A stretch of 64,000 bases of DNA from Escherichia coli. GTDB lineage: Bacteria; Pseudomonadota; Gammaproteobacteria; Enterobacterales; Enterobacteriaceae. This document shows, piece after piece, positions 3,183-58,097 of this stretch. Each line of letters begins with the position of its first letter. Position 1 is the first letter of the stretch. Made by a program: the position numbers and the translations under genes. The notes beneath the pieces were generated by a model. The model ran no database searches. It was given only the letters and a program-made list of their open reading frames with translations, and was not told the DNA's origin. The stretch lies in the NCBI RefSeq assembly GCF_003019035.1, contig NZ_CP027447.1; one strand, given 5' to 3'.

Positions 3183-6100
3183 TTACCAGCTATATTTCAC
3201 ACCCAGCATGCCCTGAGTATCGCTATAGCCTTTATCACCTAGTTGCACACCGACATTCCCCCACAGGCTAAGGTTGTTATTTACTTTCGCCTCAACCCCG
3301 GTACGTACTTCACCGAGATTACGCGCACCATCACGGCTTACGTTTTGACCATTCATCTTCACGGCGTAGACTTTGCTGTTGTTGATCCAGTTCGCTTCAA
3401 TGTAAGGCTGGAACTCACGCTGTTTACCATTGTCACGCTGGTGATGACTGTTCTGGTAGGTTTTCACCCCAAGTCGTGTTTGCACGTTTCCGTCTCCTTC
3501 CGTTTCAATGCGTGTTCCGTCTTTCCGGGTATGGTCAGAATCTTTCACACCCATCCAGGTGATTTGTACCTGTGGCTGGACGTACCAGGTATTCAGCGTC
3601 CCTTCGCTGCCGCTAAATGTTCCCGCTTCAAAGGTATACCCACCCTCAACAGAGGCCGTCACACCGCGAGAATCATAGTCGTCAGCAGAACGGTTATCGG
3701 AACTGACGCTGTTATCAAACCAGTTATACAGCGCCCAGCTGTCAACATAAGCGCCGGTCTTATTCGCATCGTTCTGATACCAGGTCGCGTACAGTCCTGC
3801 GCTGTAACCGCTGATGCGCCCATCCGATTTATAACCCACATGATTACTCTGAGTATTACTGTGCTGATTGGCATAGCCTGCCATCACGCCGAGATGCCAG
3901 CGATCCTGCGCGTTGCTACTCCACTGCGCCAAATCGCCGCCTAGCTGCAATACATAGCGGTTAGCCTGAGTATTTAGCTGACCATCACCGGTCCTGAAAC
4001 GTTCGTGCCCTCCGACATGACGCATCCATATACTGGTTGCCGAATCCTGAACTCGCAGTGAATCTGTATACTGCGGCTCACCCAGACGGTCGTGTAAGCG
4101 ATGGCTAAACAGCGAGTTGGCTGCGGCAATGTTGCTGATATAGCTTCCGGCCTCCGGGCGATAAACTGATGGGCCTTCCGGATCCACAACAGGGGGATTA
4201 TTGATGGGATCGGGTGTATCCGCTGGCGTTACGCCGTCCCATTTACTGGTCAGATACCAGTTTTTCTCGTCATTCCCCTTCCCTTTAGCCAGCGTGTAGA
4301 CGTAAGCCCCAGCTTCGACAGTTCCGGTGGTCAGCGCGAAGTTACCTGCAGAATTACCGCCAACCTCAATGAGTTCAATACCGTTGACCGTTTGTGCACC
4401 GACGCCGCCAATGTTATTAACCCGAACGCGGGTATTGCCCTGCGTATCACCTTTTACGTTCATTTTATCCGTGGGGGAATTATCGCTACCCAGCGTCGCG
4501 TTGAACGTCATCAGGCCATTGTTTCCGGTATAGTTACCGTTAACGGTCAGTACATTCCCCGGTTTCCCCCCTTCGCTGTTCATTTGAACCGTGCCACCAT
4601 TCTCCAGGTTACCGCCGACAGTGGTTTTAGCGACACGCAGTGTCCCCCCAGGCATAACGTTCACATCACCTGCAGTGGTGACATTTCCCGACATCACACC
4701 GCTGTTATGGATATTAATGTGCTGACTTGCCATATTAATGGCAGAGTCGGAACCGAAAGCAATTTCACCACCCACGATATCCGTCGTACCCTGGTACGCC
4801 GCGGAATCGTTGTTAAGAGTCAGGATCCCGGACCCCAGTTTTGTCACACCGCCGCTACCGGTGATACTGTGCGTCATCGCCCAGCTACGCTCAGTGGAGA
4901 TGGTGAGCAGGCCATTATTGATAACGGAAGCATCACCCAGGTTTTTCTGCTCGTTGACGCTGAGCGCGCTGCCTGTATCAATGTTGAATTGCCCCACAAA
5001 GCGGCTATTATCGCCATCCAGCTCTACGTCTGTCCTGGCGGTTGCGCTCACGATACCCTTCCCGCTTATGCTATTACGCAGTTCGCCGGTCACGTTTTTT
5101 AGCGTTAACAGACCGTCATTGGCAATATTTCCTCTGCCTAACCCCTGCGTATTATCGAGGCTGACTTCCGCATTTGGGCTAACGCTGGTTAACGCATTGT
5201 AGCGTGCATTAAGCCCCTCGATAGCCAGCGTTCCCCCTGTAACATTCAGGTTTCCGCCACCTGTCAGTTCACCCTGACTGATCCCACCTTTATTCACCGT
5301 CAGCGACCCTTCTTTGAACAAAACAGTCGAACCCATCTGCCCGGTGAATGTCTCTACCGTCTGCGTCGATCCATTAAGATCGACGATGGCCGCGTTGCTG
5401 ATGTTCAGTTCCCGGGTGTTGCCCAGCGCGCCATCCGCATCGGTACGTAATGTCCCCATCTGAACGTAGGTTGCCCCCTGATAGTCGTTCTGACCGTTGG
5501 AAAGCGAAACCTGTCGCACCGTATTGATTGCCAGATCCCCTTCACCACCGATTTTTGCCGACATATCGGCCGTTGCGCCATAGGCTCCGCCATGTTCGGC
5601 TAATGTCAGCTTTTGCCCACCATGGATGTTCAGCGCTTTCAGCCCATAGTTAACGTACAAACCATCACCTGGTGCGGTCGTGAGGCGGAATCCATAATCA
5701 CCCTCGGCGACCACCGTTCCGTTTTGCGCAATGTGTAACGTTTTGTCCGCTTCCACCTCGTCGCCCTGTAAATCACGTAACGTTAATGAGCCACCCGACC
5801 CAATAACCGTTTGCGCCTTCACCAGTTGAACGCCGACATGGTTATCATCGTGTTCCAGCAAATTGAGCGTCGTCAGAGGGTTATTCGCCATGGGATCATT
5901 CCACGGTTTAGGCACGTCGATAAGCACGTCGCCCGTCCCGTTTACCTGATAGTTACGGCCTTTCCAGGTGTAGTCACCCGCGCCGACAGCCAGCGTATCG
6001 ACGCTGATATATCCCTCCGCAAGCGTCGCAGCAGGTATATCCGTATCGAAAGTGAGCGTACCGCCATTCATGGCTAGTCCACCAATGGATTGCTCTCCCA

Positions 6101-8603
6101 CGTTTACCGATGTGGTATTTTCACTGTCAGACTGAAGCATCGCGTGAGTAAGCGCAGCGGTGTTGTCGCGTTCCAGTGTGAAGGTACTGTCTTTCAGTTG
6201 GACAACACCGGCGAATTCAGTTCCTGTTGCATGGGTAAAGCCAAACATTTTGTCGGAGGATGACAGCTGCACTCGCATCAAGCCATCGCCTTTGAGCGCA
6301 TTGGTCAGCGTGTAATCTCCTGCGCTGTTCGTTGATGCGAGAATGTCGAGCGTACCGGGGCTTGCAATGGTGACTTCACTCGAACCCATGCCCGTTACCC
6401 CATCTGCCGTATGTGACGCAATGGTCAGGAGGCCGTCATTGACCAGCGTTTTACCGCTATAAGTATTCCCTGCATTGAACACCGTATGGCCTGCATCATG
6501 TATCACTTTTCCGTCTTTATCGTCACCCGTAATCAGCATATCGACCTGGTAGCCGGCATCACTGTTATTGGTATGATTAAAGACAAAAACACCTTCGCCA
6601 GAACCAAACTCTACTTTCGTCGCGTTGGCGATAAACCCGGCATCTGCCGCCGCCTCACCGTGAGCAGCACCAATGTTTAGCGTTCCTACAGCAGGTTCAA
6701 AAAGACCTAAGTAAACTTCGCCACCTTCGACATTCAGCGTGCCGTTATTCGTCAGGGTTAACGTACCCGTACCAGACGTCCCTACATTCATATTGAATGT
6801 TTCAAGAAGAGAGTTCTGCCCATCCACCCGCACGTCGCCCTTACTTTTGTCATTCAGAGCTATCTGTGTATCACGCGCTTTAACTATACCTCCGGTGGTA
6901 ATATTCAGTTCACCCGTACCTAATACACCGACCTGTAGCAATTGGGCGTTAGTAGATGACGTTTTTAAATTCCAGAGACTATCCGTTGAAATATTAACTA
7001 TCCCCTTACCGGAGGCATTTCCTCCGATAAATCCATAGCCCGTTGAATTAAGGGTGGCACCATTACTGACATTTACGATGCCGCTACCAAAATTACCGAC
7101 ATTGATACCTACAGTATCGAACGATGATGTCGCATCCATCAGGTTCAGTGTGCCGATACCGCTTGCTTTATCGCCCAAAAAAGTAATATTTTGCGATACG
7201 AACTTACCGCCATCGCTGATATTGAGGTTTCCGACGCCCGCAACACCAATGGTGGTGTAGACATTCTTATTGACCTCCCATATCCCCCCCGTGGTGATGC
7301 TAACCTTCCCGACGCCGGTTTCTCCATAACCGAGTGAACTTCCTCCGTTGCTGACAACAAGCCCCTCATTACTGATATTCATTTCGCCGTGGCCGTCATA
7401 ACCAAGATTAGTTCCGAGATTAGTGATAACGGAGTTCTTATCCTTAACAGTAATGTTGCCTGTGCCTGTTTCTTTCATCCCCGCAGTGATAATTCCCGAA
7501 TCTACTTTGCCTTCACTAGAGACATTAAGTTCACCGTCGCCAGCATCACCGATATAGATATAGCGGAAAGCTTCGCCCGTTCCGAGGAAATTCCAATGCC
7601 CTTTATCGGTCACGTTGACGACACCGTGGGAACCGTCCTGAACGCCCACCAATGAATATTCTTTGTTATTAATCAGTCCATTATTGGAAATATTGACTTT
7701 GCCATTACCGAAATATCCATTATAGAGTCTGCGTACCGTGATGACAGAGTCTTGATCCTGCACATTCAGGGTTCCGATACCGGTGGCATTGCCTCCGATA
7801 ATCGTATTTTCAGCCGTAATTAGCCCACCCTCGCGAATAGTCGCTTCCCCAGTTCCTTGATTACCAATTTGAAATTCAATTGAGGAATCGTTATTTTTTA
7901 TTAGCCACTCACCGCCCTTTTCAACGACAACCTTACCATTACTGTTCGCTTGATATCCTACAGTGGCGACTATTGAACTCGTGACGTAACCCTTATCCGT
8001 AATATTTAATGAGCCCGTACCGTAACTCCCTATTTCGAATAATTCGGTCGTCAGAACCGAGTCCTCTCCCTCAACATTAACCGTCCCGACGCCTCCTGTC
8101 GAAGAACCTATCCTTAAATATCCTCCGTCAACGTGACCCTTCTGTTTAATATTCAGCGTCCCCGTTCCGGATTGACCCACATTTAAAGGCCTTGCATTAT
8201 TTCCGCTATCATACAATCGCCAGGTCCCACCCAAAACATTAACGGTGCCCTCCGAGTCCTCATTAGCGCCAATGACGCTGGTAGTAATAGTGGTTAAGGA
8301 AGCATTACCGCCAGCCAAAATATTAAGCACTCCAGTGCCATACCAGCCAACCAGGTAGGCATCATAAGCAACATCAGTATCAATATTGGTAATCTGACCA
8401 TTATCAACTTCCAGACTCGCACCAGACGCTGAACCGCTTAGTGCCAGCAAAACACCCAGCGTCAATCTACTGAGTTTCGTTGTCAGTCCAGAGGATTTAC
8501 GCAAATTAACCGTCGATGTTTTACCTACCCTGCGAGTTAATTCAGAGCAGGCCTGAAATACCTGTAGAGTGCAATTCCATATCACGCGATAGATTCTATT
8601 CAT
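3183..8603 (-). CDS. AIDA-I-type autotransporter adhesin, 1806 aa, intact (YdeK/YneO-family locus)
   Basis: N-terminal extended signal peptide (MNRIYRVIWN...), long Gly/Thr/Asn-rich beta-helix passenger repeats, C-terminal beta-barrel ending ...LGVKYSW. Confidence 0.85.
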   Translation of the reverse strand: MNRIYRVIWNCTLQVFQACSELTRRVGKTSTVNLRKSSGLTTKLSRLTLGVLLALSGSASGASLEVDNGQITNIDTDVAYDAYLVGWYGTGVLNILAGGNASLTTITTSVIGANEDSEGTVNVLGGTWRLYDSGNNARPLNVGQSGTGTLNIKQKGHVDGGYLRIGSSTGGVGTVNVEGEDSVLTTELFEIGSYGTGSLNITDKGYVTSSIVATVGYQANSNGKVVVEKGGEWLIKNNDSSIEFQIGNQGTGEATIREGGLITAENTIIGGNATGIGTLNVQDQDSVITVRRLYNGYFGNGKVNISNNGLINNKEYSLVGVQDGSHGVVNVTDKGHWNFLGTGEAFRYIYIGDAGDGELNVSSEGKVDSGIITAGMKETGTGNITVKDKNSVITNLGTNLGYDGHGEMNISNEGLVVSNGGSSLGYGETGVGKVSITTGGIWEVNKNVYTTIGVAGVGNLNISDGGKFVSQNITFLGDKASGIGTLNLMDATSSFDTVGINVGNFGSGIVNVSNGATLNSTGYGFIGGNASGKGIVNISTDSLWNLKTSSTNAQLLQVGVLGTGELNITTGGIVKARDTQIALNDKSKGDVRVDGQNSLLETFNMNVGTSGTGTLTLTNNGTLNVEGGEVYLGLFEPAVGTLNIGAAHGEAAADAGFIANATKVEFGSGEGVFVFNHTNNSDAGYQVDMLITGDDKDGKVIHDAGHTVFNAGNTYSGKTLVNDGLLTIASHTADGVTGMGSSEVTIASPGTLDILASTNSAGDYTLTNALKGDGLMRVQLSSSDKMFGFTHATGTEFAGVVQLKDSTFTLERDNTAALTHAMLQSDSENTTSVNVGEQSIGGLAMNGGTLTFDTDIPAATLAEGYISVDTLAVGAGDYTWKGRNYQVNGTGDVLIDVPKPWNDPMANNPLTTLNLLEHDDNHVGVQLVKAQTVIGSGGSLTLRDLQGDEVEADKTLHIAQNGTVVAEGDYGFRLTTAPGDGLYVNYGLKALNIHGGQKLTLAEHGGAYGATADMSAKIGGEGDLAINTVRQVSLSNGQNDYQGATYVQMGTLRTDADGALGNTRELNISNAAIVDLNGSTQTVETFTGQMGSTVLFKEGSLTVNKGGISQGELTGGGNLNVTGGTLAIEGLNARYNALTSVSPNAEVSLDNTQGLGRGNIANDGLLTLKNVTGELRNSISGKGIVSATARTDVELDGDNSRFVGQFNIDTGSALSVNEQKNLGDASVINNGLLTISTERSWAMTHSITGSGGVTKLGSGILTLNNDSAAYQGTTDIVGGEIAFGSDSAINMASQHINIHNSGVMSGNVTTAGDVNVMPGGTLRVAKTTVGGNLENGGTVQMNSEGGKPGNVLTVNGNYTGNNGLMTFNATLGSDNSPTDKMNVKGDTQGNTRVRVNNIGGVGAQTVNGIELIEVGGNSAGNFALTTGTVEAGAYVYTLAKGKGNDEKNWYLTSKWDGVTPADTPDPINNPPVVDPEGPSVYRPEAGSYISNIAAANSLFSHRLHDRLGEPQYTDSLRVQDSATSIWMRHVGGHERFRTGDGQLNTQANRYVLQLGGDLAQWSSNAQDRWHLGVMAGYANQHSNTQSNHVGYKSDGRISGYSAGLYATWYQNDANKTGAYVDSWALYNWFDNSVSSDNRSADDYDSRGVTASVEGGYTFEAGTFSGSEGTLNTWYVQPQVQITWMGVKDSDHTRKDGTRIETEGDGNVQTRLGVKTYQNSHHQRDNGKQREFQPYIEANWINNSKVYAVKMNGQNVSRDGARNLGEVRTGVEAKVNNNLSLWGNVGVQLGDKGYSDTQGMLGVKYSW

Positions 8604-9132: not shown

Positions 9133-10725
9133 CTATAACCCAGGCGCTTTCCATAACGACGTCGTCAGTCCATGATCAACCAGCCCCAGCTGATCCTGAT
9201 AAACTGCCTGCCACTTATCGCGTGAATCCTGATAAAGTTCATGCTTTTCTGGGTCTGGTGTGTGCGTCCGTTCCCAGCGAACCAGGCGTTCTCCGGTTTC
9301 TGCCATTGATGAAAAAATTCCGGCACCGACGCCAGCTGCAATGGCACATCCTAATGCAGTGGCTTCTTTGACCACCGGAATATTGACGGGTAATCCCGAG
9401 ACATCAGCGAGAATTTGACTCCATAATTTCCCTTTTGAACCTCCGCCTGCAAAGACCAGAGCGGTGGGATGAATATTCGAAAAATCAGCAATTTGCTGCA
9501 AGTTACACGCTGATACAATCGCCGCATTTTCTTCCAGCGCACGGAACAATGTCGCTTTGTTACATTTATCCGGGTCAATGGACAAGTTAATAAAGGAAGG
9601 CGCAGCGTGATACCAGGTTTTAAAGCGCATTCTGTCGGAGAATATCGGCATTACGCCCCACGACCCAGGCGGCACCCGACTGGCCATCTCTTCAAGCAGC
9701 GTATAGGTGTCGATGCCTAAACGTTCGGCAATCAGTTTTTCTTCGGCACAGAAAGCATCGCGGAACCAGCGCATGGTGAGTCCGGTAAAAAAGCTTATAG
9801 ATTCAGCTTGTACCATGCCAGGAATAACATGGGGATTAACGCGCACGTTCATTTCTGGGTCTGTCACCGGCGCGGCTAAGTTTACAACTTGCTGCCAGAA
9901 TGTACCGCCAAGAACCGCGGTTTGTGCCGGACGGACAACGCCTAACCCCAGGCAACCAAGCTGCACGTCACCTCCTCCAACGACCACCGGAGTGCCCGCC
10001 TTCAGACCGCAGAGTTCCGCCGCTTGTGAACTTACCACGCCCAGCAATGTGCCGGTTTCTTTGACAGGAGAAAGAATATCGGCCCGCAGTCCGGCCATAT
10101 CCAGCAATGCAGGTTTCCAGTCACGGGTGGTTAGATCAAGAAGTCCCGTGGTGCCAGCGTTAGAGGGATCCACCGCCAGTTCGCCGCTGAGCATATAGGC
10201 CAGCCAGTCGCTGATCATGGTGATGGTCGACGCCTGTCGGTAGATATCGGAACGATGGTGCGCCAGCCAAAGTAATCTGGGGATGGCGCTTAAAGCCAGC
10301 GTTTGCCCGGTCGCTCGATAAACTTTGTTTTCAAAGGTATTGTTGTGCAGTTCTTTAAGTTCGCTAACTTCGCGCGCCGCTCTGGCATCCACATTGGCGC
10401 AGGCCCAGATCGGTGTTCCATCATTGTTATATAAAACAATGCCTTCACGCATCGAACATGCCGAAACGGCAGCGATATACTCCGGGGCTATGCCGGCGTT
10501 GTGCAGCGCCTGGCGCATACACTCACACGCCAGTTGCCAGTTTTTGTTGAGATCAAATTCCATAGAACCAGGAACGTCCGGTACTGCCAGGTGCCGCCAC
10601 TCCGCCTGTCCCACGGCTATTTGATTGCCTTCCAGGTCGAATATCACAGCCCGAATACTTCCGGTACCTGCATCCAGCGCCATCAGGTAATACTTTGATT
10701 CTGAAGGGGTAAAGAGTCGAGCCAT
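9133..10725 (-). CDS. lsrK: Autoinducer-2 kinase LsrK (530 aa)
   Basis: FGGY sugar-kinase family sequence recognised as LsrK; divergent from lsrA operon together with lsrR. Confidence 0.95.
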
Positions 10726-10803
10726 TAGATTATCCTCGGCTTATGCGTTCTGTCTGTTCCTCTATACGTTCTCCATCATTCCCGGTAATAAGGTCATGCA
10801 AAT

Positions 10804-11757
10804 TTAACTACGTAAAATCGCCGCTGCTGTATCCTGATCGGTAACCAGTGCGTTGATATAACCGCCTTTCATTGCAGCGGCAATGGCTTCGGCTTTATTT
10901 TCTCCCCCTGCCACGCCAACCCGGACGGGTATGGTCTTCAGCGCGCTTAAAGGTAAGCCAATCAGTTCGTTATGTATTTTAATATCCGTGACAACGTCAC
11001 CTTTTGCATCAAAAAAGTAGCCTAAAATGTCGCCAACCGCCCCTTTTCGACCAATCATTAACTGTTCGCCCTGGCTGATATAGCCGGAGCGAATGATTGT
11101 TGCGTCGTCTTGTTGACTCACAGCCCCAATGCCGACAATCGCTACATCCGCTGCTTGCGCGGCTAGCAGAACATCTTTGACGCAATTTTCATTTTTTAGC
11201 GTACGGGCAATGTCAGCGGAGGATGCCCGCAACGGAGCCGGAATAATATTCACACTGCACGCCGCGTTAAGCTGCCCGATACCCGTCATATAAGAACCGA
11301 CTCCACCGGAGAGCGTGACCAGGCGAATTTGCTGTGACGAAATAAAACCACTTAAGCGTTGCAGCGTATTCATGGTTGCCTCGCCAAAACCAATCGCCAG
11401 CATCTGTTGTGGTTGAAGTAAACTCATCAACATATGCGCCGCGCCTATACCTAGTCGCCCGCCGACATCAGCATCCGCAAGCCCTGGGATCACCCGGACA
11501 TGTTGCAGCGAAAACTGACGACGTAATTGTGTTTCATATTCCAGACAGCCTTCAAAGCGAGAATTAATCTGTACGCGAATAATGCCGGATTGATGCCCTT
11601 TCTCCAGTAATCGCGACACTTTCAAACGGGTCAGGCCGAGACGATCGCTGATCTCACTCTGGGTCAGCCCGTCGTGGTAGTAAAACCACGCAATCCGCGC
11701 GACCTGTTCTTCTTCACACATTCCCTGTTCTGAAATTACCGAATCGTTGATTGTCAT
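10804..11757 (-). CDS. lsrR: LsrR transcriptional repressor (SorC family, 317 aa)
   Basis: N-terminal HTH plus sugar-phosphate binding domain; position upstream of lsrK, divergent from lsrA. Confidence 0.95.
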
Positions 11758-12005
11758 AATTCATTCTTCACTTTGAACATACTTAAATCTTTAATGCAAT
11801 TGTTCAGTTCTTGCGCATTTATATCTGTGATGGCAACCACAGTTTGACTCTATGAGCATGAACAAACGCAACCGTGAAAATCAAAATAGCATAAATTGTG
11901 ATCTATTCGTCGGAAATATGTGCAATGTCCACCTAAGGTTATGAACAAATTAAAAACAGAAATACATTTGTTCAAAACTCACCTGCAAAACTGAACGGGG
12001 GAAAT
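11758..12005. promoter_or_regulatory. Divergent lsrR / lsrACDBFG promoter region with candidate CRP site
   Basis: AT-rich 248-bp intergenic region; CRP-like palindrome TGTGATGGCAACCACA at 11826-11841; weaker TGTGA half-site at 11897. Confidence 0.55.
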
Positions 12006-13541
12006 ATGCAAACGAGTGATACCCGCGCGTTACCGCTACTTTGCGCCCGCTCGGTTTATAAACAGTATTCAGGAGTTAATGTCCTGAAAGGCATCGATTT
12101 TACGTTGCATCAGGGGGAGGTCCACGCCCTGCTCGGCGGCAATGGTGCCGGTAAATCGACGTTAATGAAGATTATTGCCGGTATTACCCCTGCTGATAGC
12201 GGTACGCTGGAGATTGGGGGCAACAACTACGTCAGATTAACGCCAGTTCATGCTCATCAGCTGGGCATTTATCTCGTTCCCCAGGAACCGCTGCTTTTTC
12301 CAAGCCTGTCGATAAAAGAAAACATCCTGTTTGGTCTGGCAAAAAAACAGCTCTCCATACAGAAAATGAATAACTTGCTGGCGGCGCTGGGCTGCCAGTT
12401 TGATCTGCATAGTCTGGCAGGATCGCTGGATGTCGCCGATCGCCAAATGGTGGAAATCCTCCGCGGGCTGATGCGCGATTCGCGAATTCTGATCCTCGAT
12501 GAACCTACCGCCTCGCTTACTCCCGCCGAAACCGAACGTTTGTTTATTCGCTTGCGGGAGCTGCTTGCTACTGGCGTGGGTATTGTTTTTATCTCGCATA
12601 AGCTGCCGGAAATTCGCCAGATTGCCGACCGAATTAGCGTGATGCGCGACGGAACCATCGCCTTAAGCGGCAAAACCAGCGAACTGTCTACCGACGACAT
12701 TATTCAGGCCATTACGCCAGCGCTACGGGAAAAATCGCTCTCTGCCAGCCAAAAATTATGGCTGGAATTACCTGGCAACCGCCCACAACATGCCGCGGGA
12801 ACGCCGGTGCTGACACTGGAAAATCTGACCGGCGAAGGTTTCAGGAATGTCAGCCTGACGCTCAATGCCGGAGAAATTCTGGGCCTGGCTGGGCTGGTGG
12901 GAGCCGGACGCACAGAACTGGCCGAGACGCTCTATGGTCTGCGTACTTTGCGTGGCGGACGCATTATGCTGAATGGTAAAGAGATCAATAGATTATCCAC
13001 CGGAGAACGTTTACTGCGCGGTCTGGTTTATCTGCCGGAAGATCGCCAGTCATCCGGACTTAATCTCGATGCTTCACTGGCGTGGAACGTCTGCGCCCTT
13101 ACTCATAACCTTCGTGGATTCTGGGCGAAAACCGCGAAAGATAATGCCACCCTGGAACGATATCGTCGGGCGCTGAATATTAAATTTAACCAACCGGAAC
13201 AAGCTGCGCGGACCTTATCCGGCGGCAACCAGCAAAAAATCCTGATTGCCAAATGCCTGGAAGCCTCGCCGCAAGTATTGATTGTCGATGAGCCGACGCG
13301 CGGCGTGGATGTCTCGGCGCGTAATGATATCTACCAACTGTTGCGCAGCATCGCCGCACAGAATGTGGCTGTGCTGCTTATCTCCTCTGATCTCGAAGAG
13401 ATCGAACTGATGGCAGATCGCGTGTATGTGATGCATCAGGGCGAAATTGCCCACTCTGCACTGACCGGGCGCGATATTAATGTCGAGACCATTATGCGCG
13501 TTGCCTTCGGCGATAGTCAGCGTCAGGAGGCGTCATGCTGA
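12006..13541 (+). CDS. lsrA: AI-2 ABC transporter ATP-binding protein LsrA (511 aa)
   Basis: Two ABC cassettes with Walker A motifs GGNGAGKST and AGLVGAGRT. Confidence 0.95.
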
Positions 13542-14563
13542 AATTTATTCAGAACAACCGTGAAATCACGGCACTGCTGGCGGTGGTGCTGCTGTTTGTA
13601 TTACCCGGTTTTCTCGACCGTCAGTATTTAAGTGTGCAAACGCTGACCATGGTTTATAGCAGCGCGCAAATCCTGATCCTGCTGGCAATGGGCGCGACGC
13701 TGGTAATGCTTACGCGCAATATTGATGTTTCAGTGGGTTCGATTACCGGAATGTGCGCGGTGCTGTTGGGGATGTTACTGAACGCGGGGTATTCACTACC
13801 TGTTGCTTGTGTCGCGACTTTACTGCTTGGTTTGCTCGCGGGATTTTTCAACGGTGTCCTGGTCGCGTGGCTAAAGATCCCTGCCATTGTTGCCACCCTT
13901 GGCACGTTAGGGTTGTACAGAGGCATCATGTTGCTGTGGACTGGCGGTAAATGGATTGAGGGATTACCCGCCGAACTGAAACAACTCTCCGCCCCGCTGC
14001 TGTTTGGCGTTTCCGCGATTGGTTGGTTGACGATAATTCTGGTGGCATTTATGGCCTGGCTGCTGGCAAAGACGGCGTTTGGACGCAGTTTTTATGTCAC
14101 GGGCGATAATTTACAGGGCGCTCGTCAACTGGGCGTTCGTACGGAAGCCATTCGCATTGTGGCATTTTCGTTGAACGGCTGCATGGCGGCACTGGCGGGA
14201 ATTGTGTTTGCTTCGCAGATTGGTTTTATCCCCAACCAGACCGGTACCGGGCTGGAGATGAAAGCAATTGCAGCCTGCGTGCTGGGCGGCATTAGTTTGC
14301 TCGGCGGTTCCGGCGCGATCATCGGTGCGGTACTCGGTGCATGGTTCCTGACGCAGATCGATAGTGTACTGGTGCTGTTGCGCATTCCGGCATGGTGGAA
14401 TGATTTTATCGCGGGCATGGTTCTGCTGGCGGTGCTGGTGTTTGATGGACGCCTGCGTTGTGCGCTGGAACGTAATCTGCGGCGGCAAAAATATGCCCGC
14501 TTTATGATGCCACCGCCATCCGTTAAACCCGCTTCGTCAGGTAAAAAACGGGAGGCCGCGTAA
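13535..14563 (+). CDS. lsrC: AI-2 ABC transporter permease LsrC
   Basis: Polytopic permease; 7-nt overlap with the lsrA stop. Confidence 0.95.
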
Positions 14564-15555
14564 TGCGTATTCGCTACGGTTGGGAACTGGCTCTTGCCGC
14601 ACTGCTCGTTATTGAGATTGTTGCATTTGGTGCAATTAACCCGCGGATGTTAGATCTCAATATGTTGCTGTTCAGCACCAGTGACTTTATCTGCATTGGC
14701 ATTGTCGCCCTACCGCTGACGATGGTGATTGTCAGTGGTGGGATCGATATTTCGTTTGGTTCGACCATCGGCCTCTGCGCCATTGCATTGGGCGTACTGT
14801 TTCAAAGTGGTGTGCCGATGCCGCTGGCGATTCTTCTGACCTTACTGCTCGGCGCATTGTGCGGGTTGATCAACGCCGGATTAATTATCTATACCAAAGT
14901 TAACCCGCTGGTGATTACGCTTGGCACGCTGTATCTGTTTGCCGGAAGCGCCCTGCTGCTTTCCGGGATGGCCGGAGCGACGGGGTACGAAGGTATTGGT
15001 GGATTCCCGATGGCGTTTACAGATTTCGCTAACCTGGATGTGCTGGGACTCCCCGTTCCGCTGATTATCTTCCTGATATGTCTCCTCGTTTTCTGGCTCT
15101 GGCTGCATAAAACCCATGCCGGACGTAACGTGTTTTTAATTGGGCAAAGCCCGCGTGTGGCGGTTTATAGCGCGATTCCAGTTAACCGCACCTTGTGTGC
15201 GCTCTATGCCATGACGGGGCTGGCGTCTGCGGTCGCCGCTGTGCTGCTGGTATCGTATTTTGGTTCAGCACGTTCCGATCTCGGTGCGTCGTTTCTGATG
15301 CCCGCCATCACCGCCGTAGTGCTCGGCGGTGCCAATATTTATGGTGGTTCTGGTTCCATTATCGGCACCGCCATTGCGGTTTTATTAGTGGGATATTTGC
15401 AACAAGGTTTGCAAATGGCAGGAGTGCCAAATCAGGTGTCCAGCGCCCTTTCCGGTGCGCTACTTATCGTCGTTGTCGTAGGTCGTTCCGTTAGCCTGCA
15501 TCGCCAGCAAATTAAAGAGTGGCTGGCGCGTCGGGCCAATAACCCATTGCCATAA
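14563..15555 (+). CDS. lsrD: AI-2 ABC transporter permease LsrD
   Basis: Polytopic permease; start overlaps the lsrC stop. Confidence 0.95.
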
Positions 15556-15566
15556 AGGATATCTTC

Positions 15567-16589
15567 ATGACACTTCATCGCTTTAAGAAAATCGCCTTAA
15601 TTAGCGCGCTTGGCATTGCCGTAATCTCTATGAATGTGCAGGCGGCAGAGCGTATTGCATTTATTCCCAAACTGGTTGGCGTAGGATTTTTTACCAGCGG
15701 TGGCAACGGCGCACAACAAGCTGGTAAAGAGCTGGGCGTTGATGTGACCTACGACGGGCCGACAGAACCCAGTGTTTCTGGTCAGGTACAGTTGATTAAT
15801 AACTTCGTCAATCAGGGTTATAACGCCATTATCGTTTCTGCGGTTTCGCCTGATGGCTTGTGTCCGGCACTGAAACGCGCCATGCAACGTGGTGTGAGAG
15901 TGCTGACCTGGGACTCTGATACTAAACCGGAGTGCCGCTCTTACTACATTAATCAGGGAACGCCCGCCCAGTTGGGAGGTATGTTGGTGGATATGGCGGC
16001 GCGTCAGGTGAATAAAGACAAAGCCAAAGTCGCGTTTTTCTACTCAAGCCCCACCGTTACGGACCAAAACCAGTGGGTGAAAGAAGCGAAAGCGAAAATC
16101 GCCAAAGAGCATCCAGGCTGGGAAATTGTCACTACGCAGTTTGGCTATAACGATGCCACTAAATCATTACAAACCGCAGAAGGAATATTAAAAGCGTATA
16201 GCGATCTCGACGCTATTATCGCCCCCGATGCCAATGCCCTGCCCGCTGCCGCACAAGCCGCAGAAAACCTGAAAAATGACAAAGTTGCGATTGTCGGATT
16301 CAGTACGCCAAACGTGATGCGTCCATATGTGGAACGCGGCACGGTGAAAGAATTTGGCCTGTGGGATGTGGTTCAGCAAGGCAAAATATCAGTTTATGTC
16401 GCGGATGCATTATTGAAAAAAGGATCAATGAAAACGGGCGACAAGCTGGATATTCAGGGCGTAGGTCAGGTGGAAGTCTCGCCAAACAGCGTTCAGGGCT
16501 ATGACTACGAAGCGGATGGTAATGGCATCGTACTGTTACCGGAGCGCGTGATATTCAACAAAGAGAATATCGGCAAATACGATTTCTGA
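15567..16589 (+). CDS. lsrB: AI-2 periplasmic binding protein LsrB
   Basis: Signal peptide [26 protein letters not shown] followed by periplasmic sugar-binding fold. Confidence 0.95.
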
Positions 16590-16615
16590 TGTGCATTACT
16601 TAACCGGAGTACGTT

Positions 16616-17491
16616 ATGGCAGATTTAGACGATATTAAAGATGGTAAAGATTTTCGTACCGATCAACCGCAACAAAATATCCCTTTTACCCTGAAAGGTT
16701 GCGGTGCACTGGATTGGGGAATGCAGTCACGCTTATCGCGGATATTTAATCCGAAAACGGGTAAAACCGTGATGCTGGCCTTTGATCATGGTTATTTTCA
16801 GGGGCCGACTACCGGACTTGAACGCATTGATATAAATATCGCCCCGCTGTTTGAACATGCCGATGTATTAATGTGTACGCGCGGCATTTTGCGCAGCGTA
16901 GTCCCCCCTGCGACCAATAAGCCGGTGGTACTGCGGGCGTCAGGTGCGAACTCTATTCTGGCGGAATTAAGTAATGAAGCCGTGGCGTTATCGATGGATG
17001 ACGCCGTGCGCCTGAACAGTTGCGCGGTGGCGGCGCAGGTTTATATCGGCAGCGAATATGAACATCAGTCGATCAAAAATATTATTCAGCTGGTCGATGC
17101 CGGAATGAAAGCGGGAATGCCGACCATGGCCGTGACTGGTGTGGGCAAAGATATGGTGCGCGATCAGCGTTATTTCTCGCTCGCGACTCGAATCGCCGCT
17201 GAAATGGGGGCGCAGATTATCAAAACTTATTATGTCGATAAAGGTTTTGAACGGATTGTTGCCGGATGTCCGGTACCCATTGTTATTGCTGGCGGTAAAA
17301 AGTTACCGGAGCGCGAGGCGCTGGAAATGTGCTGGCAGGCTATCGATCAGGGCGCTTCTGGTGTGGATATGGGGCGTAATATTTTCCAGTCTGACCATCC
17401 GGTGGCGATGATGAAAGCCGTACAGGCGGTGGTACACCATAACGAAACGGCTGATCGGGCATATGAACTCTATCTGAGTGAAAAACAGTAA
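16616..17491 (+). CDS. lsrF: LsrF, 3-hydroxy-5-phosphonooxypentane-2,4-dione thiolase (aldolase-like)
   Basis: Class I aldolase-like sequence in lsr operon context. Confidence 0.95.
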
Positions 17492-17514
17492 CTGCGGATT
17501 TAAGGAGAAGAATT

Positions 17515-17805
17515 ATGCACGTCACACTGGTTGAAATTAACGTTCATGAAGACAAGGTTGACGAGTTTATCGAAGTTTTTCGCCAGAACCACCTGGGCTC
17601 GGTACAGGAAGAAGGCAATTTGCGCTTCGATGTCTTACAGGACCCGGAAGTGAATTCGCGCTTTTATATCTACGAAGCTTATAAAGATGAAGACGCAGTG
17701 GCGTTCCATAAAACCACGCCCCACTACAAAACCTGTGTCGCAAAACTGGAAGCTTTAATGACCGGGCCGCGTAAAAAACGTCTGTTCAATGGATTGATGC
17801 CGTGA
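17515..17805 (+). CDS. lsrG: LsrG, phospho-AI-2 isomerase (96 aa)
   Basis: Small ABM-monooxygenase-like protein at the operon end. Confidence 0.9.
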
Positions 17806-17861: not shown

Positions 17862-18620
17862 ATGTCTGACTGGAACCCCTCTTTATATCTGCACTTTGCC
17901 GCTGAACGATCGCGTCCGGCGATGGAGCTGCTTGCCAGAGTGCCGCTGGAGAATATCGAATACGTTGCCGATCTTGGCTGTGGCCCAGGTAACAGCACCG
18001 CACTGCTGCATCAACGTTGGCCTGCGGCCAGGATAACAGGCATCGACTCGTCTCCGGCGATGATTGCTGAAGCGCGCAGTGCTTTGCCAGACTGCCAGTT
18101 CGTGGAAGCAGACATCCGCAACTGGCAACCGGAACAGGCACTCGATCTGATTTTTGCTAATGCCTCACTGCAATGGCTGCCCGACCACTACGAATTGTTC
18201 CCTCATCTGGTTTCTTTACTTAATTCGCATGGTGTGTTGGCAGTACAGATGCCAGATAACTGGCTAGAGCCAACCCATGTGCTCATGCGCGAAGTCGCCT
18301 GGGAACAAAATTATCCGGATCGCGGGCGTGAGCCGCTGGCTGGCGTTCATGCTTACTACGATATTTTGAGCGAAGCCGGATGTGAGGTCGATATCTGGCG
18401 AACCACTTACTATCACCAGATGCCGTCGCACCAGGCGATTATCGATTGGGTGACCGCCACTGGATTACGTCCGTGGTTACAGGATCTGACCGAGAGCGAA
18501 CAGCAGCATTTTCTTACGCGCTACCATCAGATGCTGGAAGAGCAGTATCCACTGCAAGAGAACGGAGAGATACTGCTGGCATTTCCGCGTCTGTTTATTG
18601 TTGCCCGCCGTACGGAGTAA
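17862..18620 (+). CDS. tam: Trans-aconitate 2-methyltransferase
   Basis: SAM-binding motif [12 protein letters not shown]; position after lsrG. Confidence 0.9.
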
Positions 18621-19538: not shown

Positions 19539-19697
19539 GGTTATCTTCAGGCGTGGAAAAGTCGCCCTATTAAACGTGATTACGATCACATTCTCAAGAC
19601 ACTACTTACAAATTACCTACAAGCTTACAACATTAACAGGTGCTGCATGTAGCACCTGTTAATGATAAAGGCACATAGGATGTTGTAACTAATATAG

Positions 19698-21413: not shown

Positions 21414-22832
21414 TCAGACAACTTCCTCACCGTAACGCATAGTGCTGGTACGGTTGCGCCCATCTTTCTTCGAGCGATACAGACATGTATCGGCTTCGAC
21501 CATCAATTTATTAAAGTCATCGGTCAGCGTTCGGTACGATGCGCAACCACTACCGACGCCAATACTTACCGTGAGATAAAGCGTTTTTTGTTGCCAGGTG
21601 AACGGTTGCAGTTCAACGCCTTTACGGATTTTTTCCGCCATTAGCAGACCATCGACAGGATTCACCGATGGCACTGCAACAGCAAATTCCTCGCCGCCCA
21701 TTCGCGCCACCAGCCCCTTATCACCGACAATCTTCTGAATATGCTGGGCAAACACGCTTAACACTTTATCGCCACATTCATGTCCATAGTTATCGTTAAT
21801 GCTTTTGAAATAGTCGATATCAAGCAGCATGACAGTCAGATGTTGTGTCTGTTTCAGCGATGGACTTTTCAGCGCCTCATAAAGACCGGACCGTGAGTAA
21901 ACCTGAGTCAGAAAATCAAAGTCGGCTCGCAGCGCAACTTGCTTCATTAGCGAATTGATCGCTGCCACGCTAAAAGAAACCATAATTGGGCATATCGCCA
22001 TCGTGGCAATACCGAGACGTGCGGAGAACATTTGCGGAATGGAGAACGGCGAACCGACCGAGATATCAATCACCGAATTTGCCACCATTACGATTTCCAC
22101 CGCACCGGTGACAAAGGTCAACAGACATGTTACCTGCGGCGTATAGCGCACTGCACACCAGATTAATGCAGGCAGCGGGAACGCCAGACTCCCCGCTCCG
22201 CCAATGACTACCGAGGCAATAACCGACACAATAAGCGCGATAGCGGGCATCATCTGTTCTGCTTTAAAGCGCGGCAGCACTCCAGGAATTGCCAACGTCA
22301 GCATACAAGGCACGATCAACACGCCCGTTGAGAATTGCTCACTGAACCAGTCGGCAAGCAAAGGCCAGAAATCCAGACTATCAATACTGACCGAACCAAT
22401 CGCCCCGACAATAGCGCATAATAATGCGGCAATCAGACAGTAATTAAATAGCCGTAAGGCACTTACTGGCTCGTACTTATTTTTCCCCAGACGCTTATCC
22501 CGCGCGACCAGTAAGGCGACGGTAACAATAAACATCATATTGGAGAAATTGATAGCCAGTGAAACCAGCCCCCATTCGGTGGTTATGGCATCATAAACCA
22601 GCATCGCCACATAACTGATCGCATAGTAATGCAGTCGATTAAGCCAGACATAGCGGGCAAACACCCCCGCCATTACGCCATTCAGCGGCCAGAAAAGAGA
22701 AAGTTCGTGAACCAGCCGTAACTCTGCACCAATAAAATAGAACAGCGTGGTTAGCGCAAAAATAGCGATGCTATTACGTAGCAGATGACCTTCCTGGAAC
22801 AAACGGAAAGTTGAAATGGGCTGTACATGCAT
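21414..22832 (-). CDS. dgcF: Membrane-anchored diguanylate cyclase (GGDEF) YneF/DgcF
   Basis: N-terminal multi-TM domain then GGDEF domain with GGEEF active-site motif (…ARMGGEEFAV…); N-terminal start not certain. Confidence 0.8.
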   Translation of the reverse strand: MHVQPISTFRLFQEGHLLRNSIAIFALTTLFYFIGAELRLVHELSLFWPLNGVMAGVFARYVWLNRLHYYAISYVAMLVYDAITTEWGLVSLAINFSNMMFIVTVALLVARDKRLGKNKYEPVSALRLFNYCLIAALLCAIVGAIGSVSIDSLDFWPLLADWFSEQFSTGVLIVPCMLTLAIPGVLPRFKAEQMMPAIALIVSVIASVVIGGAGSLAFPLPALIWCAVRYTPQVTCLLTFVTGAVEIVMVANSVIDISVGSPFSIPQMFSARLGIATMAICPIMVSFSVAAINSLMKQVALRADFDFLTQVYSRSGLYEALKSPSLKQTQHLTVMLLDIDYFKSINDNYGHECGDKVLSVFAQHIQKIVGDKGLVARMGGEEFAVAVPSVNPVDGLLMAEKIRKGVELQPFTWQQKTLYLTVSIGVGSGCASYRTLTDDFNKLMVEADTCLYRSKKDGRNRTSTMRYGEEVV

Positions 22833-39898: not shown

Positions 39899-39994
39899 AT
39901 GCTGGGTAATATGAATGTTTTTATGGCCGTACTGGGAATAATTTTATTTTCTGGGTTTCTGGCCGCGTATTTCAGCCACAAATGGGATGACTAA
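39899..39994 (+). CDS. mgtS: Small membrane protein MgtS (YneM), 31 aa
   Basis: Read by hand below the track cutoff: MLGNMNVFMAVLGIILFSGFLAAYFSHKWDD with stop at 39992-39994; Shine-Dalgarno GGAGG upstream. Confidence 0.85.
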   Translation: MLGNMNVFMAVLGIILFSGFLAAYFSHKWDD

Positions 39995-40021
39995 TGAACG
40001 GAGATAATCCCTCACCTAACC

Positions 40022-40060
40022 GGCCCCTTGTTACAGTTGTGTACAAGGGGCCTGATTTTT
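40022..40060 (+). terminator. Rho-independent terminator of mgtS
   Basis: 10-bp perfect stem GGCCCCTTGT / ACAAGGGGCC followed by TGATTTTTA. Confidence 0.7.
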
Positions 40061-40067
40061 ATGACGG

Positions 40068-40172
40068 CGAAAAAAAACCGCCAGTAAACCGGCGGTGAAT
40101 GCTTGCATGGATAGATTTGTGTTTTGCTTTTACGCTAACAGGCATTTTCCTGCACTGATAACGGATCGTTGA
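40068..40172 (-). ncRNA. mgrR: Putative PhoP-dependent sRNA MgrR (boundaries approximate)
   Basis: Minus-strand promoter with PhoP box at 40202-40218 and minus-strand intrinsic terminator at 40068-40096 (CCGCC stem plus 7-8 U); about 100 nt with no ORF; position between mgtS and dgcZ. Confidence 0.45.
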
Positions 40173-40201
40173 CACAGTAGCATCAGTTTTCTCAATGAAT
40201 G

Positions 40202-45819: not shown

Positions 45820-45901
45820 TTCATTTCCTCTCATCCCATCCGGGGTGAGAGTCTATTCGCCCCGCCTTATGGCTCATGCATGCATCAAAAAAGATGTGAG
45901 C

Positions 45902-45915
45902 TTGATCAAAAACAA
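45902..45915 (+). promoter_or_regulatory. Candidate FNR site upstream of ydfZ
   Basis: TTGAT-CAAA-AACAA (9 of 10 to the TTGAT-N4-ATCAA consensus), centred about 89 bp upstream of the ydfZ ATG. Confidence 0.3.
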
Positions 45916-51221: not shown

Positions 51222-51515
51222 TCACCCACGATTAACCAACAGCCAGACCAGCAGACACGCCACCACCGGCACAGCAAAATCCATCAGGCTTGCCACATCC
51301 CACGCGCGCGGATCAAAACCGCCCCACCACGGCATATTCATTCGCTTGCCATGCCCGAACATTTCAATCCAGCGATATTCTGCCTGGGTATGTTCACGCG
51401 CAATGAAGAACGTACAACCGGCTATCGCTCCGTAAGCCCAGTTTCCGGTAAAAAGACCAACCAGTATCTGCGCAGCCACAGCACAAAGTGCATGAAGTAA
51501 GGGGCTTATATCCAT
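51222..51515 (-). CDS. Hypothetical small membrane protein (97 aa, two predicted TM segments)
   Basis: Hydrophobic stretches [28 protein letters not shown] and [15 protein letters not shown]; no lipobox; lies where the tfa body is expected. Confidence 0.5.
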
Positions 51516-51527
51516 TATTTCCTCCTT

Positions 51528-51806
51528 TCAGCTCCATTCCCGAAGCGGTGTTTCCAGCTCCACGACATAATCAGAGAATACAGAAACATCAAACAAGTCA
51601 TCAAGAATGCGAATGTTGACAAAATAACCGTTATTCCGGATACAGACAGGTTCTCCCTCTTCAGTTACCCCTGTTTCTGTGTAGGTGAAACCAATTTCAT
51701 CGACTAACAGTTTATTCTGGAGGTCTTCATCTTCCTCCCAGTCAAGAGATGACAGGAAGGATTTAAACTCTCTGTTACCAGGAAATTTCAAAGTTAAATC
51801 TTTCAT
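51528..51806 (-). CDS. Hypothetical small acidic protein (92 aa); possible fibre chaperone or moron product
   Basis: ORF immediately downstream of, and 4-nt overlapping, stf; Asp/Glu-rich; no resemblance to Tfa that I can see. Confidence 0.5.
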   Translation of the reverse strand: MKDLTLKFPGNREFKSFLSSLDWEEDEDLQNKLLVDEIGFTYTETGVTEEGEPVCIRNNGYFVNIRILDDLFDVSVFSDYVVELETPLREWS

Positions 51807-53833: not shown

Positions 53834-53891
53834 TCCACAAAAAAGCCCGCCTGAACCGGCGGGCTGTCATAACACTGTGTTACCTGGCTAA

Positions 53892-54491: not shown

Positions 54492-54557
54492 AATTACCTC
54501 TCGCTTTTCTGCAATAAAAAAGGCGTCATTTCTGACGCCCGTTATGGGTTATAAAAT

Positions 54558-58034: not shown

Positions 58035-58097
58035 CATTCCTAACGCTCCATAAACGACAAAACCGCCCGGAGGCGGTTTCACATAAAATATTTTGCA

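What the first reader, a model, noticed from the sequence alone, without database searches (positions are those of the whole stretch)
11758..12005. Complete AI-2 lsr locus with recognisable CRP site in the divergent promoter
All eight lsr genes are intact and syntenic. The intergenic region has a good CRP palindrome (TGTGATGGCAACCACA, 11826-11841) positioned to serve both divergent promoters. This is an established system, recorded for completeness.
Basis: established knowledge. Interest (0 to 1): 0.15.

Follow-up and report, generated by a model that had tools for sequence, protein, structure and literature searches.

The report
Known E. coli lsr locus, CRP sites

Summary
Window 9133-17805 carries all eight lsr genes (lsrK, lsrR, lsrA, lsrC, lsrD, lsrB, lsrF, lsrG). 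Each is the same length as in K-12, has no internal stop and scores above its NCBIfam equivalog cut-off. The window is base-identical to E. coli strain SCU-301 over 1-24005. The 248-bp spacer is 11758-12005 and TGTGATGGCAACCACA sits at 11826-11841.

The palindrome is more than chance. Across 14 taxa from eight named genera plus one unclassified Enterobacteriaceae MAG, its half-sites are 100% and 96% conserved while its 6-bp spacer is 43% conserved. It is the site the literature calls CRPII.

It also missed the two LsrR operators (TGAACA-N21-TGTTCA, 11774-11806 and 11942-11974). CRPII keeps a fixed distance to the lsrR-side operator in all 14 taxa. Its distance to the lsrA-side elements varies by 2 bp. 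Each CRP centre lies 29.5 bp from a -10-like hexamer of the nearer gene, which implies -41.5. So "one CRP site per promoter" fits better than "one site serving both". No reliable start-site data were available to confirm this.

The one possibly undescribed item is a degenerate third LsrR-like box at 11859-11891. Already known; low interest.

The parts
9133..10725 (-). lsrK, autoinducer-2 kinase, 530 aa
   Evidence: NF008187 equivalog 999 bits (cut-off 528). Same length as K-12, 6 aa substitutions, no stops.
10804..11757 (-). lsrR, SorC/DeoR-type repressor, 317 aa
   Evidence: NF011947 equivalog 620 bits (cut-off 486). 2 aa substitutions vs K-12.
11758..12005 (.). lsrR-lsrA divergent control region, 248 bp
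   Evidence: 100% identical to SCU-301, and at least 80% of it is found in 4171 of 5426 complete E. coli genomes. 4 SNPs vs K-12, none in a CRP half-site. Spacer length is 248-251 bp in 8 genera plus an unclassified Enterobacteriaceae MAG.
11774..11806 (.). LsrR operator 1 (p-lsrR box): TGAACA-N21-TGTTCA
   Evidence: Half-sites 100% and 96% conserved in 14 taxa. Lies inside the p-lsrR box placed at -237 to -197 from the lsrA start in PMC5137460, which is window 11769-11809.
11799..11804 (-). Candidate -10 of the lsrR promoter, AACAAT on the minus strand (inferred)
   Evidence: First base is 29.5 bp from the CRPII centre in the 12 taxa correctly parsed, which implies CRPII at -41.5. Sequence inference only; it overlaps LsrR operator 1.
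11826..11841 (.).
   Evidence: Named in the PMC5137460 Fig. 2 legend. FIMO score 16.1, p = 1.5e-6 in Table S4 of the 2026 preprint.
11859..11891 (.). Candidate third LsrR-like box, TGAACA-N21-ATAGCA (degenerate in Escherichia)
   Evidence: Orthologous position in all 14 taxa, with 1-4 mismatches to the TGAACA/TGTTCA half-sites. The PWM score beats everything in the 64-kb window except the two known boxes in 9 of 14 taxa; empirical P = 1.8e-4 for this window's copy.
11897..11912 (.). CRP site 'CRPI', TGTGATCTATTCGTCG, centre 11904.5. Good left half, poor right half.
   Evidence: GTGATC is invariant in 14 taxa. Adjacent to TGTGCAAT as described in PMC5137460. FIMO score 10.5, p = 3.8e-5.
11919..11926 (+). 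TGTGCAAT, proposed CytR half-site and location of the published promoter-up mutations
   Evidence: PMC5137460; located. Not conserved across genera.
11934..11939 (+). Candidate -10 of the lsrA promoter, TAAGGT (inferred)
   Evidence: The T, A and final T (the key TAnnnT positions) are invariant in 14 taxa (columns T177, A178, T182). The first base is 29.5 bp from the CRPI centre, which implies CRPI at -41.5.
11942..11974 (.). LsrR operator 2 (p-lsrA box): TGAACA-N21-TGTTCA
   Evidence: Both half-sites 100% conserved in 14 taxa.
11993..12001 (+). lsrA ribosome-binding region, GAACGGGGG
   Evidence: 94% mean column identity (GAACGGAGG in most taxa).
12006..13541 (+). lsrA, ABC transporter ATPase, 511 aa
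   Evidence: NF011967 954 bits (cut-off 586). 9 aa substitutions vs K-12.
13535..14563 (+). lsrC, permease, 342 aa
   Evidence: NF011961 665 bits (cut-off 388).
14563..15555 (+). lsrD, permease, 330 aa
   Evidence: NF011612 597 bits (cut-off 500).
15567..16589 (+). lsrB, periplasmic AI-2 binding protein, 340 aa
   Evidence: NF011937 700 bits (cut-off 384).
16616..17491 (+). lsrF, 3-hydroxy-5-phosphonooxypentane-2,4-dione thiolase, 291 aa
   Evidence: NF006081 560 bits (cut-off 297).
17515..17805 (+). lsrG, phospho-DPD isomerase, 96 aa
   Evidence: NF007791 191 bits (cut-off 135).
17862..18620 (+). tam, trans-aconitate methyltransferase, downstream of lsrG as in K-12
   Evidence: NF002463 447 bits (cut-off 297).

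Best explanation
**What it is.** This is the canonical E. coli lsr regulon: lsrRK and lsrACDBFG-tam transcribed divergently from a 248-bp control region.

**Shown here.**
- All eight genes are intact.
- The control region contains two invariant LsrR-type operators, TGAACA-N21-TGTTCA, one abutting each gene.
- Between the operators lie two CRP-type sites. The other is a half-site-dominated element (CRPI, centre 11904.5, on the lsrA side).

**From the literature.** lsr expression needs cAMP-CRP and is repressed by LsrR until phospho-AI-2, made by LsrK, releases it.

**Inferred.**
- Each CRP site is a class II (-41.5) activator site for the promoter nearest to it.
- CRPII would drive lsrRK, with -10 AACAAT (reverse complement of 11799-11804) and a start near 11792.
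- CRPI would drive lsrACDBFG, with -10 TAAGGT (11934-11939) and a start near 11946.
- Each LsrR operator overlaps the -10 and start region of its promoter. Repression would then work by occlusion, and catabolite control and AI-2 control would be integrated at each promoter separately.

Confidence is about 0.95 for the identification and about 0.5 for the one-site-per-promoter class II geometry.
For: **Gene identity and integrity:**

**The two named CRP sites, and their order** (p-lsrR box, CRPII, CRPI, p-lsrA box): PMC5137460 Fig. 2 legend and text. Both appear as FIMO hits in E. coli and in Salmonella in Table S4 of the 2026 preprint.

**CRP dependence of Plsr:** shown with delta-crp and complementation in the same preprint.

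**Phylogenetic footprint over 14 taxa**:
- LsrR half-sites 96-100% conserved.
- CRPII half-sites 100% and 96% against 43% for the spacer.
- CRPI GTGATC invariant.
- TAnnnT of the candidate lsrA -10 invariant.

**Modularity**:
- CRPII to box 1 is 43.5 bp in all taxa.
- CRPI to box 2 is 53.5 bp in all taxa.
- The CRPII-CRPI distance varies from 69 to 71 bp.
- The only gaps in the alignment upstream of the lsrA leader fall between CRPII and the central box.
- Both CRP centres are 29.5 bp from the first base of a -10-like hexamer.
Against: - No reliable transcription start is available.
- The consensus sigma-70 scan found no promoter in 11700-12060. That is expected for activator-dependent promoters, but it gives no support either.
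- The only start on record (Kim et al. 2012, PMC3415461, supplementary file 2; 3 reads) is 7 nt upstream of the lsrR ATG, at window 11764. That would place CRPII at -69.5, not -41.5.
- AACAAT is invariant anyway because it is part of the LsrR operator, so its conservation says nothing about a -10 role.
- The CRPI right half (CGTCG) matches only 1 of 5 consensus positions.
- The primary binding and mutagenesis papers (Wang et al. 2005, J Bacteriol 187:2066; Xue et al. 2009, Cell Res 19:1258) are not held in the library, so I could not check which site was shown to bind CRP or to be required.
Confidence: 0.8

Rival explanations
1. The single palindrome at 11826-11841 is the CRP site of the region and activates both divergent promoters from one position.
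For: It is by far the best consensus match in the spacer: 9 of 10 core positions and FIMO 16.1 against 10.5 for CRPI. Both lsrR and lsr expression are described as cAMP-CRP dependent.
Against: - It is 172.5 bp from the lsrA ATG.
- To sit at -92.5 or closer, the lsrA start would have to be at or before 11926. That would put CRPI at about -21 or closer, which is an occluding position.
- A second conserved and already named CRP site exists on the lsrA side.
- The spacing of CRPII to the lsrA-side elements drifts by 2 bp among genera, about 70 degrees of helical phase. Its spacing to the lsrR side is fixed.
Confidence: 0.12
2. CRPII is a class I site at about -70 for an lsrR promoter that starts only 7 nt upstream of the ATG. 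CRPI serves lsrA.
For: The only mapped lsrR 5' end on record is at window 11764 (Kim et al. 2012, supplementary file 2). 11833.5 - 11764 = 69.5, which is close to the class I positions -61.5 and -71.5.
Against: - Only 3 reads support the start.
- A 7-nt leader leaves no room for a ribosome-binding site.
- There is no -10-like hexamer at -12 to -7 (TCAAAG).
- -69.5 is 2 bp off the canonical helical face.
- The 5' end lies inside the region an LsrR-bound operator would cover and could be a processing product.
Confidence: 0.2
3. The two sites act together on lsrA as tandem (class III-like) CRP sites. CRPI would sit at -41.5 and CRPII would be an upstream helper, acting through DNA bending or contact with the RNA polymerase alpha C-terminal domain. 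CRPII could serve lsrR as well.
For: Both sites are conserved. Tandem CRP sites are a known architecture (own knowledge of class III promoters).
Against: A centre-to-centre distance of 69-71 bp would put CRPII near -112. That is beyond the upstream positions (about -74 to -103) at which tandem sites have been shown to synergise (own knowledge, not checked here). The phase is also not conserved.
Confidence: 0.12
4. The palindrome is a chance match with no function.
For: One-mismatch matches to TGTGA-N6-TCACA are not enriched in the window as a whole: 4 against 1.95 expected.
Against: The half-sites are conserved at 96-100% over 14 taxa while the spacer and flanks are free to vary. An orthologue is also present in Salmonella (CGTGATTAACGCCACA). 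The site is already named in the literature.
Confidence: 0.03

Closest known systems
E. coli K-12 MG1655 lsr regulon (b1511-b1518) and its lsrR-lsrA intergenic region with the p-lsrR box, CRPII, CRPI and the p-lsrA box
   Same: Same eight genes in the same order with the same lengths. The 248-bp spacer is 98.4% identical. Both CRP sites and all four LsrR half-sites are identical (PMC5137460).
   Different: There are 4 SNPs in the spacer (11782, 11815, 11853, 11956). Two fall in the variable N21 interiors of the LsrR operators, and the C at 11782 is at a column that is T in the other 13 aligned sequences. There are 30 amino-acid substitutions over the eight proteins. The flanks differ: the neighbouring autotransporter is intact here but is the pseudogene yneO in K-12.
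Salmonella enterica lsr locus
   Same: Divergent lsrRK / lsrACDBFG with a spacer of about 254 bp. Table S4 of the 2026 preprint shows orthologues of both CRP sites (CGTGATTAACGCCACA and AAACGTGATCTGG...) and of LsrR box 2.
   Different: Both Salmonella CRP hits are weak (FIMO 10.6 and 9.7). The E. coli CRPII is a much better palindrome (16.1). I did not align the Salmonella spacer myself.
Class II CRP-dependent promoters (CRP centred at -41.5, weak or absent -35), combined with a sugar-phosphate-responsive SorC/DeoR-family repressor
   Same: The predicted geometry is -41.5 for each site. No -35 is recognisable. The repressor operators overlap the -10 and start region. LsrR is a tetrameric SorC/DeoR-family protein, like B. 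subtilis DeoR (PMC11229326).
   Different: The geometry is inferred from sequence and conservation only. No start site or footprint was available here.

Membership tests
Enterobacterial lsr AI-2 uptake/processing locus | All eight proteins (LsrK, R, A, C, D, B, F, G) match their specific equivalog models over full length | tested here: met
   every protein scores 1.2-2.1 times the curated NCBIfam cut-off, with end-to-end coverage.
Enterobacterial lsr AI-2 uptake/processing locus | Divergent lsrRK / lsrACDBFG organisation, syntenic with the reference | tested here: met
   identical order, strands and overlaps as in K-12 and SCU-301.
Enterobacterial lsr AI-2 uptake/processing locus | ORFs uninterrupted (no frameshift or premature stop) | tested here: met
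   lengths equal to K-12, 0 internal stops; identical to a genome in which PGAP calls none of them a pseudogene.
Enterobacterial lsr AI-2 uptake/processing locus | LsrR operators in the intergenic region | tested here: met
   Two perfect TGAACA-N21-TGTTCA boxes at 11774-11806 and 11942-11974. The first lies inside the published p-lsrR box, -237 to -197 from lsrA.
Enterobacterial lsr AI-2 uptake/processing locus | AI-2 import, phosphorylation and degradation activity | not testable with these tools
   Needs an AI-2 uptake assay.
cAMP-CRP binding site | Match to TGTGA-N6-TCACA | tested here: met
   9 of 10 positions at 11826-11841. FIMO p = 1.5e-6 for the identical sequence.
cAMP-CRP binding site | Half-sites conserved and spacer free in orthologous regions | tested here: met
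   100% and 96% against 43% over 14 taxa.
cAMP-CRP binding site | Centre at an activating position relative to a mapped start (-41.5, -61.5, -71.5 and so on) | tested here: inconclusive
   Predicted -41.5 to lsrR from the -10-like AACAAT. The only mapped 5' end (3 reads) gives -69.5. No lsrA start was found.
cAMP-CRP binding site | Physical binding by cAMP-CRP | not testable with these tools
   The primary paper (Wang et al. 2005) is not held. PMC5137460 only labels the site as CRPII.
   The second named site, CRPI, is at 11897-11912.
   Distance to the lsrR-side operator is invariant at 43.5 bp. Distance to CRPI and the lsrA-side elements is 69-71 bp.

The most novel reading that the evidence does not exclude
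The lsr control region may carry a third, central LsrR-type operator (window 11859-11891, TGAACA-N21-ATAGCA) that the held literature does not mention. It is positionally conserved in all 14 taxa examined and is near-perfect in Serratia sp. H1w, Edwardsiella, Kluyvera and Mangrovibacter. It sits a fixed 29.5 bp (centre to centre) upstream of CRPI and 83 bp, about 8 helical turns, from operator 2. If a third LsrR tetramer binds there, it would flank CRPI on both sides and could modulate CRP access or stabilise repression of lsrACDBFG. In Escherichia the element has decayed to a left half-site.
Probability: 0.3. Interest if true: 0.3.

Novelty: already known. Interest (0 to 1): 0.08.

Why it matters
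It matters little beyond correct annotation, because the lsr system and its dual control by CRP and LsrR are textbook material for E. coli.

The practical point is that the control region has two CRP sites and two (perhaps three) LsrR operators, arranged as two modules. People who use Plsr as a synthetic-biology part, or who infer catabolite control of quorum sensing from one motif, should take that into account.

The conserved spacings found here give a concrete and cheaply testable promoter model.

Tried and rejected
**Promoter scan.** The consensus sigma-70 and terminator scan of 11700-12060 found nothing.

**Primary papers.** I tried to read these and none is held:
- Wang et al. 2005
- Xue et al. 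2009
- Xavier & Bassler 2005
- Thomason et al. 2015, start-site map
- Ha et al. 2013 and Wu et al. 2013

**Other literature searches.**
- A full-text search for the exact site sequences found no paper.
- The PredCRP and Crp ChIP-exo supplements contain no lsr entry.
- No supplements are held as text for the mBio 2014 operon-architecture paper.

**Ideas dropped.**
- After a first look at Table S4, I thought CRPII was Escherichia-specific and only CRPI was widely conserved. My own 14-taxon alignment and the Salmonella CRPII-like row rejected this.
- I considered TGCAAT (11921-11926) as the native lsrA -10, because the published up-mutations move it toward TATAAT. I rejected it because it is not conserved and would put CRPI at -28.5.
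- I considered a CytR-CRP sandwich. The two CRP centres are 71 bp apart, against about 52-53 bp in classical CytR promoters (own knowledge), and the proposed CytR half-site is not conserved.

**Rfam.** There is no RNA family hit in the lsr region.

Full report
**What is there**

The window is E. coli chromosome. The 248-bp stretch 11758-12005 is 100% identical to strain SCU-301, and at least 80% of it is present in 4171 of 5426 complete E. coli genomes. The window is base-for-base identical to SCU-301 over 1-24005.

Six-frame ORF listing and NCBIfam give these genes:

| Gene | Coordinates | Strand |
|---|---|---|
| lsrK | 9133-10725 | - |
| lsrR | 10804-11757 | - |
| lsrA | 12006-13541 | + |
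| lsrC | 13535-14563 | + |
| lsrD | 14563-15555 | + |
| lsrB | 15567-16589 | + |
| lsrF | 16616-17491 | + |
| lsrG | 17515-17805 | + |
| tam | 17862-18620 | + |

Each matches its own equivalog model end to end, above the curated cut-off. Against K-12 MG1655 (locus L002) all eight have the same length and no internal stop. Each carries 1-9 amino-acid substitutions, 30 in all. So "all eight lsr genes intact and syntenic" is confirmed at the sequence level. Function itself cannot be tested here.

**The palindrome**

TGTGATGGCAACCACA is exactly at 11826-11841. It matches 9 of 10 specified positions of TGTGA-N6-TCACA.

Counting alone is weak evidence. At up to one mismatch the window holds 4 matches against 1.95 expected from shuffles. 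For a 248-bp target the expectation is only about 0.008.

The stronger evidence is comparative. One scan of species-representative genomes with LsrR returned 26 loci. In Escherichia spp., Citrobacter, Kluyvera, Superficieibacter, Serratia sp. H1w, Mangrovibacter, Izhakiella, Edwardsiella and an unclassified Enterobacteriaceae MAG, the lsrR-lsrA spacer is 248-251 bp. It aligns almost without gaps at 71% mean identity (alignment A2).

In that alignment the TGTGA half is 100% conserved and the CCACA half 96%. The six bases between them are 43% conserved and the flanks 49-63%. This is the classical signature of a dimeric factor's site.

Table S4 of bioRxiv 10.64898/2026.06.09.730415 scores the identical 46-mer at FIMO 16.1, p = 1.5e-6. 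It also lists an orthologue in Salmonella, CGTGATTAACGCCACA.

The literature names two CRP boxes in this spacer. The Fig. 2 legend of PMC5137460 gives the order p-lsrR box, CRPII, CRPI, p-lsrA box. It places CRPI "very close" to TGTGCAAT, which is at 11919-11926.

CRPI is TGTGATCTATTCGTCG at 11897-11912, with centre 11904.5.

CRPI has a perfect left half (TGTGATCTA matches the extended consensus) and a poor right half (1 of 5). Its GTGATC is invariant in all 14 taxa. The preprint scores it at FIMO 10.5, p = 3.8e-5.

The most conserved elements of the spacer are two 33-bp inverted repeats, TGAACA-N21-TGTTCA, at 11774-11806 and 11942-11974. The first lies within the published p-lsrR box, -237 to -197 from the lsrA start, which is window 11769-11809. 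These are the LsrR operators.

**How it most likely works**

From the literature:
- Plsr needs cAMP-CRP. Delta-crp abolishes activity and complementation restores it.
- Plsr is repressed by LsrR until phospho-AI-2 is made.
- LsrR is a tetrameric SorC/DeoR-family repressor (PMC11229326).

From the sequence, the spacer looks like two modules:

| Distance | Value across the 14 taxa |
|---|---|
| CRPII centre to operator 1 centre | 43.5 bp in all |
| CRPI centre to operator 2 centre | 53.5 bp in all |
| CRPII centre to CRPI centre | 71, 70 or 69 bp |

The only gaps upstream of the lsrA leader fall just to the right of CRPII. The script mis-picked CRPII for the two Mangrovibacter rows, so I took their values.

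Both CRP centres lie 29.5 bp from the first base of a -10-like hexamer of the nearer gene.
- For lsrA the hexamer is TAAGGT at 11934-11939. Its T, A and final T are invariant in 14 taxa.
- For lsrR the hexamer is AACAAT, the reverse complement of 11799-11804.

With a hexamer at -12 to -7, each CRP site is centred at -41.5, the class II position. The predicted starts are near 11946 for lsrA and 11792 for lsrR. Each LsrR operator then covers the -10 and start region of its promoter.

This geometry is inference. I give it about 0.5.

**Evidence against the geometry, and gaps**

- No consensus promoter is detectable.
- The one 5' end on record for lsrR is at window 11764, seven nucleotides before the ATG (Kim et al. 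2012, 3 reads). It would put CRPII at -69.5. I regard that end as weak. It leaves no room for a ribosome-binding site, and no -10 lies upstream of it. It still keeps a class I reading alive.
- No lsrA start was found.
- The primary CRP and LsrR binding papers are not in the held library. I could not verify which site was shown to bind or to be required.

**The claim "positioned to serve both divergent promoters"**

CRPII is 76.5 bp from the lsrR ATG and 172.5 bp from the lsrA ATG. For it to lie at -92.5 or closer to lsrA, the lsrA start would have to be at or before 11926. That would turn CRPI into an occluding site.

Together with the existence of CRPI and the drifting CRPII-to-lsrA spacing, this makes the shared-site reading unlikely (about 0.12). 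An auxiliary contribution of CRPII to lsrA is not excluded.

**Comparison with known systems, and novelty**

This is the K-12-type lsr regulon. The spacer differs from MG1655 at four positions (11782, 11815, 11853, 11956). None is in a CRP half-site or an LsrR half-site.

The only element I could not find in the held literature is a third LsrR-like box at 11859-11891, between the two CRP sites.
- It occupies the same position in all 14 taxa.
- It has 1-2 mismatches to TGAACA-N21-TGTTCA in seven of them and 4 in Escherichia.
- A PWM built from the known boxes scores it above everything else in the 64-kb window in 9 of 14 taxa. For this window's copy the empirical P is 1.8e-4.

There are caveats. 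The PWM was trained on the same species, AT-rich intergenic DNA is favoured against a mostly coding background, and the primary LsrR footprint paper could not be read.

**Verdict**

The feature is already known and of low interest.

Noticed in passing
window 11859-11891: A third LsrR-box-like element, TGAACA-N21-ATAGCA, lies between CRPII and CRPI. It is at the orthologous position in all 14 aligned taxa and is near-perfect in Serratia sp. H1w, Edwardsiella, Kluyvera and Mangrovibacter but degenerate in Escherichia. It sits a fixed 29.5 bp (centre to centre) from CRPI and 83 bp from operator 2. The held literature does not mention it.
   Followed up: partly
window 11921-11926: The promoter-up mutations of PMC5137460 (TGTGCAAT to TGTACAAT, and to TGTGTAAT) turn TGCAAT into TACAAT or TGTAAT. 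Both changes move toward the -10 consensus TATAAT. Creating or improving a -10 element is a simpler explanation than the loss of CytR binding the authors proposed. The hexamer is not conserved across genera.
   Followed up: partly
window 11782: C here (T in K-12) lies in the interior of LsrR operator 1, next to the TTAAATCTT motif. That column is T in the other 13 aligned sequences. The C allele is common in E. coli, since it appears in several Table S4 rows.
   Followed up: partly
window 11764: This is the only mapped lsrR 5' end found (Kim et al. 2012, 3 reads), 7 nt upstream of the ATG, with no -10-like hexamer at the expected distance. It may be a processing product.
   Followed up: partly
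window 3183-8603 (-): An intact 1806-aa ECSE_1600-family autotransporter lies next to lsrK. The same locus is the pseudogene yneO in K-12.
   Followed up: no
window 21414-22832 (-): The diguanylate cyclase at the dgcF position is 472 aa here, annotated as sensor domain-containing. In K-12 dgcF is 948 bp, about 315 aa. The K-12 copy therefore appears truncated.
   Followed up: no
window 19575-19590, 31133-31148, 45895-45910: These are the three other one-mismatch matches to TGTGA-N6-TCACA. CGTGATTACGATCACA lies about 44 bp upstream of the annotated yneE start, between uxaB and yneE. The second maps inside marB. The third lies between rspR and ydfZ.
   Followed up: no
window 39988-40201 (-): This is the only Rfam gathering-score hit in the window: STnc560, an Hfq-binding sRNA, at 282 bits. 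It lies just downstream of dgcZ by mapping to SCU-301.
   Followed up: no
window ~31270-37446: A gene block sits between marB and eamA: a GntR regulator, PTS IIB, IIC and IIA (lactose/cellobiose type), a carbohydrate porin and a 6-phospho-beta-glucosidase. Coordinates come from mapping to the SCU-301 annotation. From my own knowledge this block is absent from K-12 at this position; I did not check that here.
   Followed up: no
window ~51500-64000: This stretch holds lambdoid prophage tail genes (tape measure, tail proteins, gpJ, tail fibre). They are only about 95% identical to the SCU-301 prophage, whereas 22480-51528 is 99.85% identical. The window therefore comes from a related but different strain, or carries a different prophage variant.
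   Followed up: no
loci L020-L026 (Buttiauxella): Buttiauxella lsrR-lsrA spacers are 195-317 bp. They keep a perfect LsrR box only on the lsrA side, and their CRP-like matches are poor (2-3 mismatches). This is a different control-region architecture.
   Followed up: no
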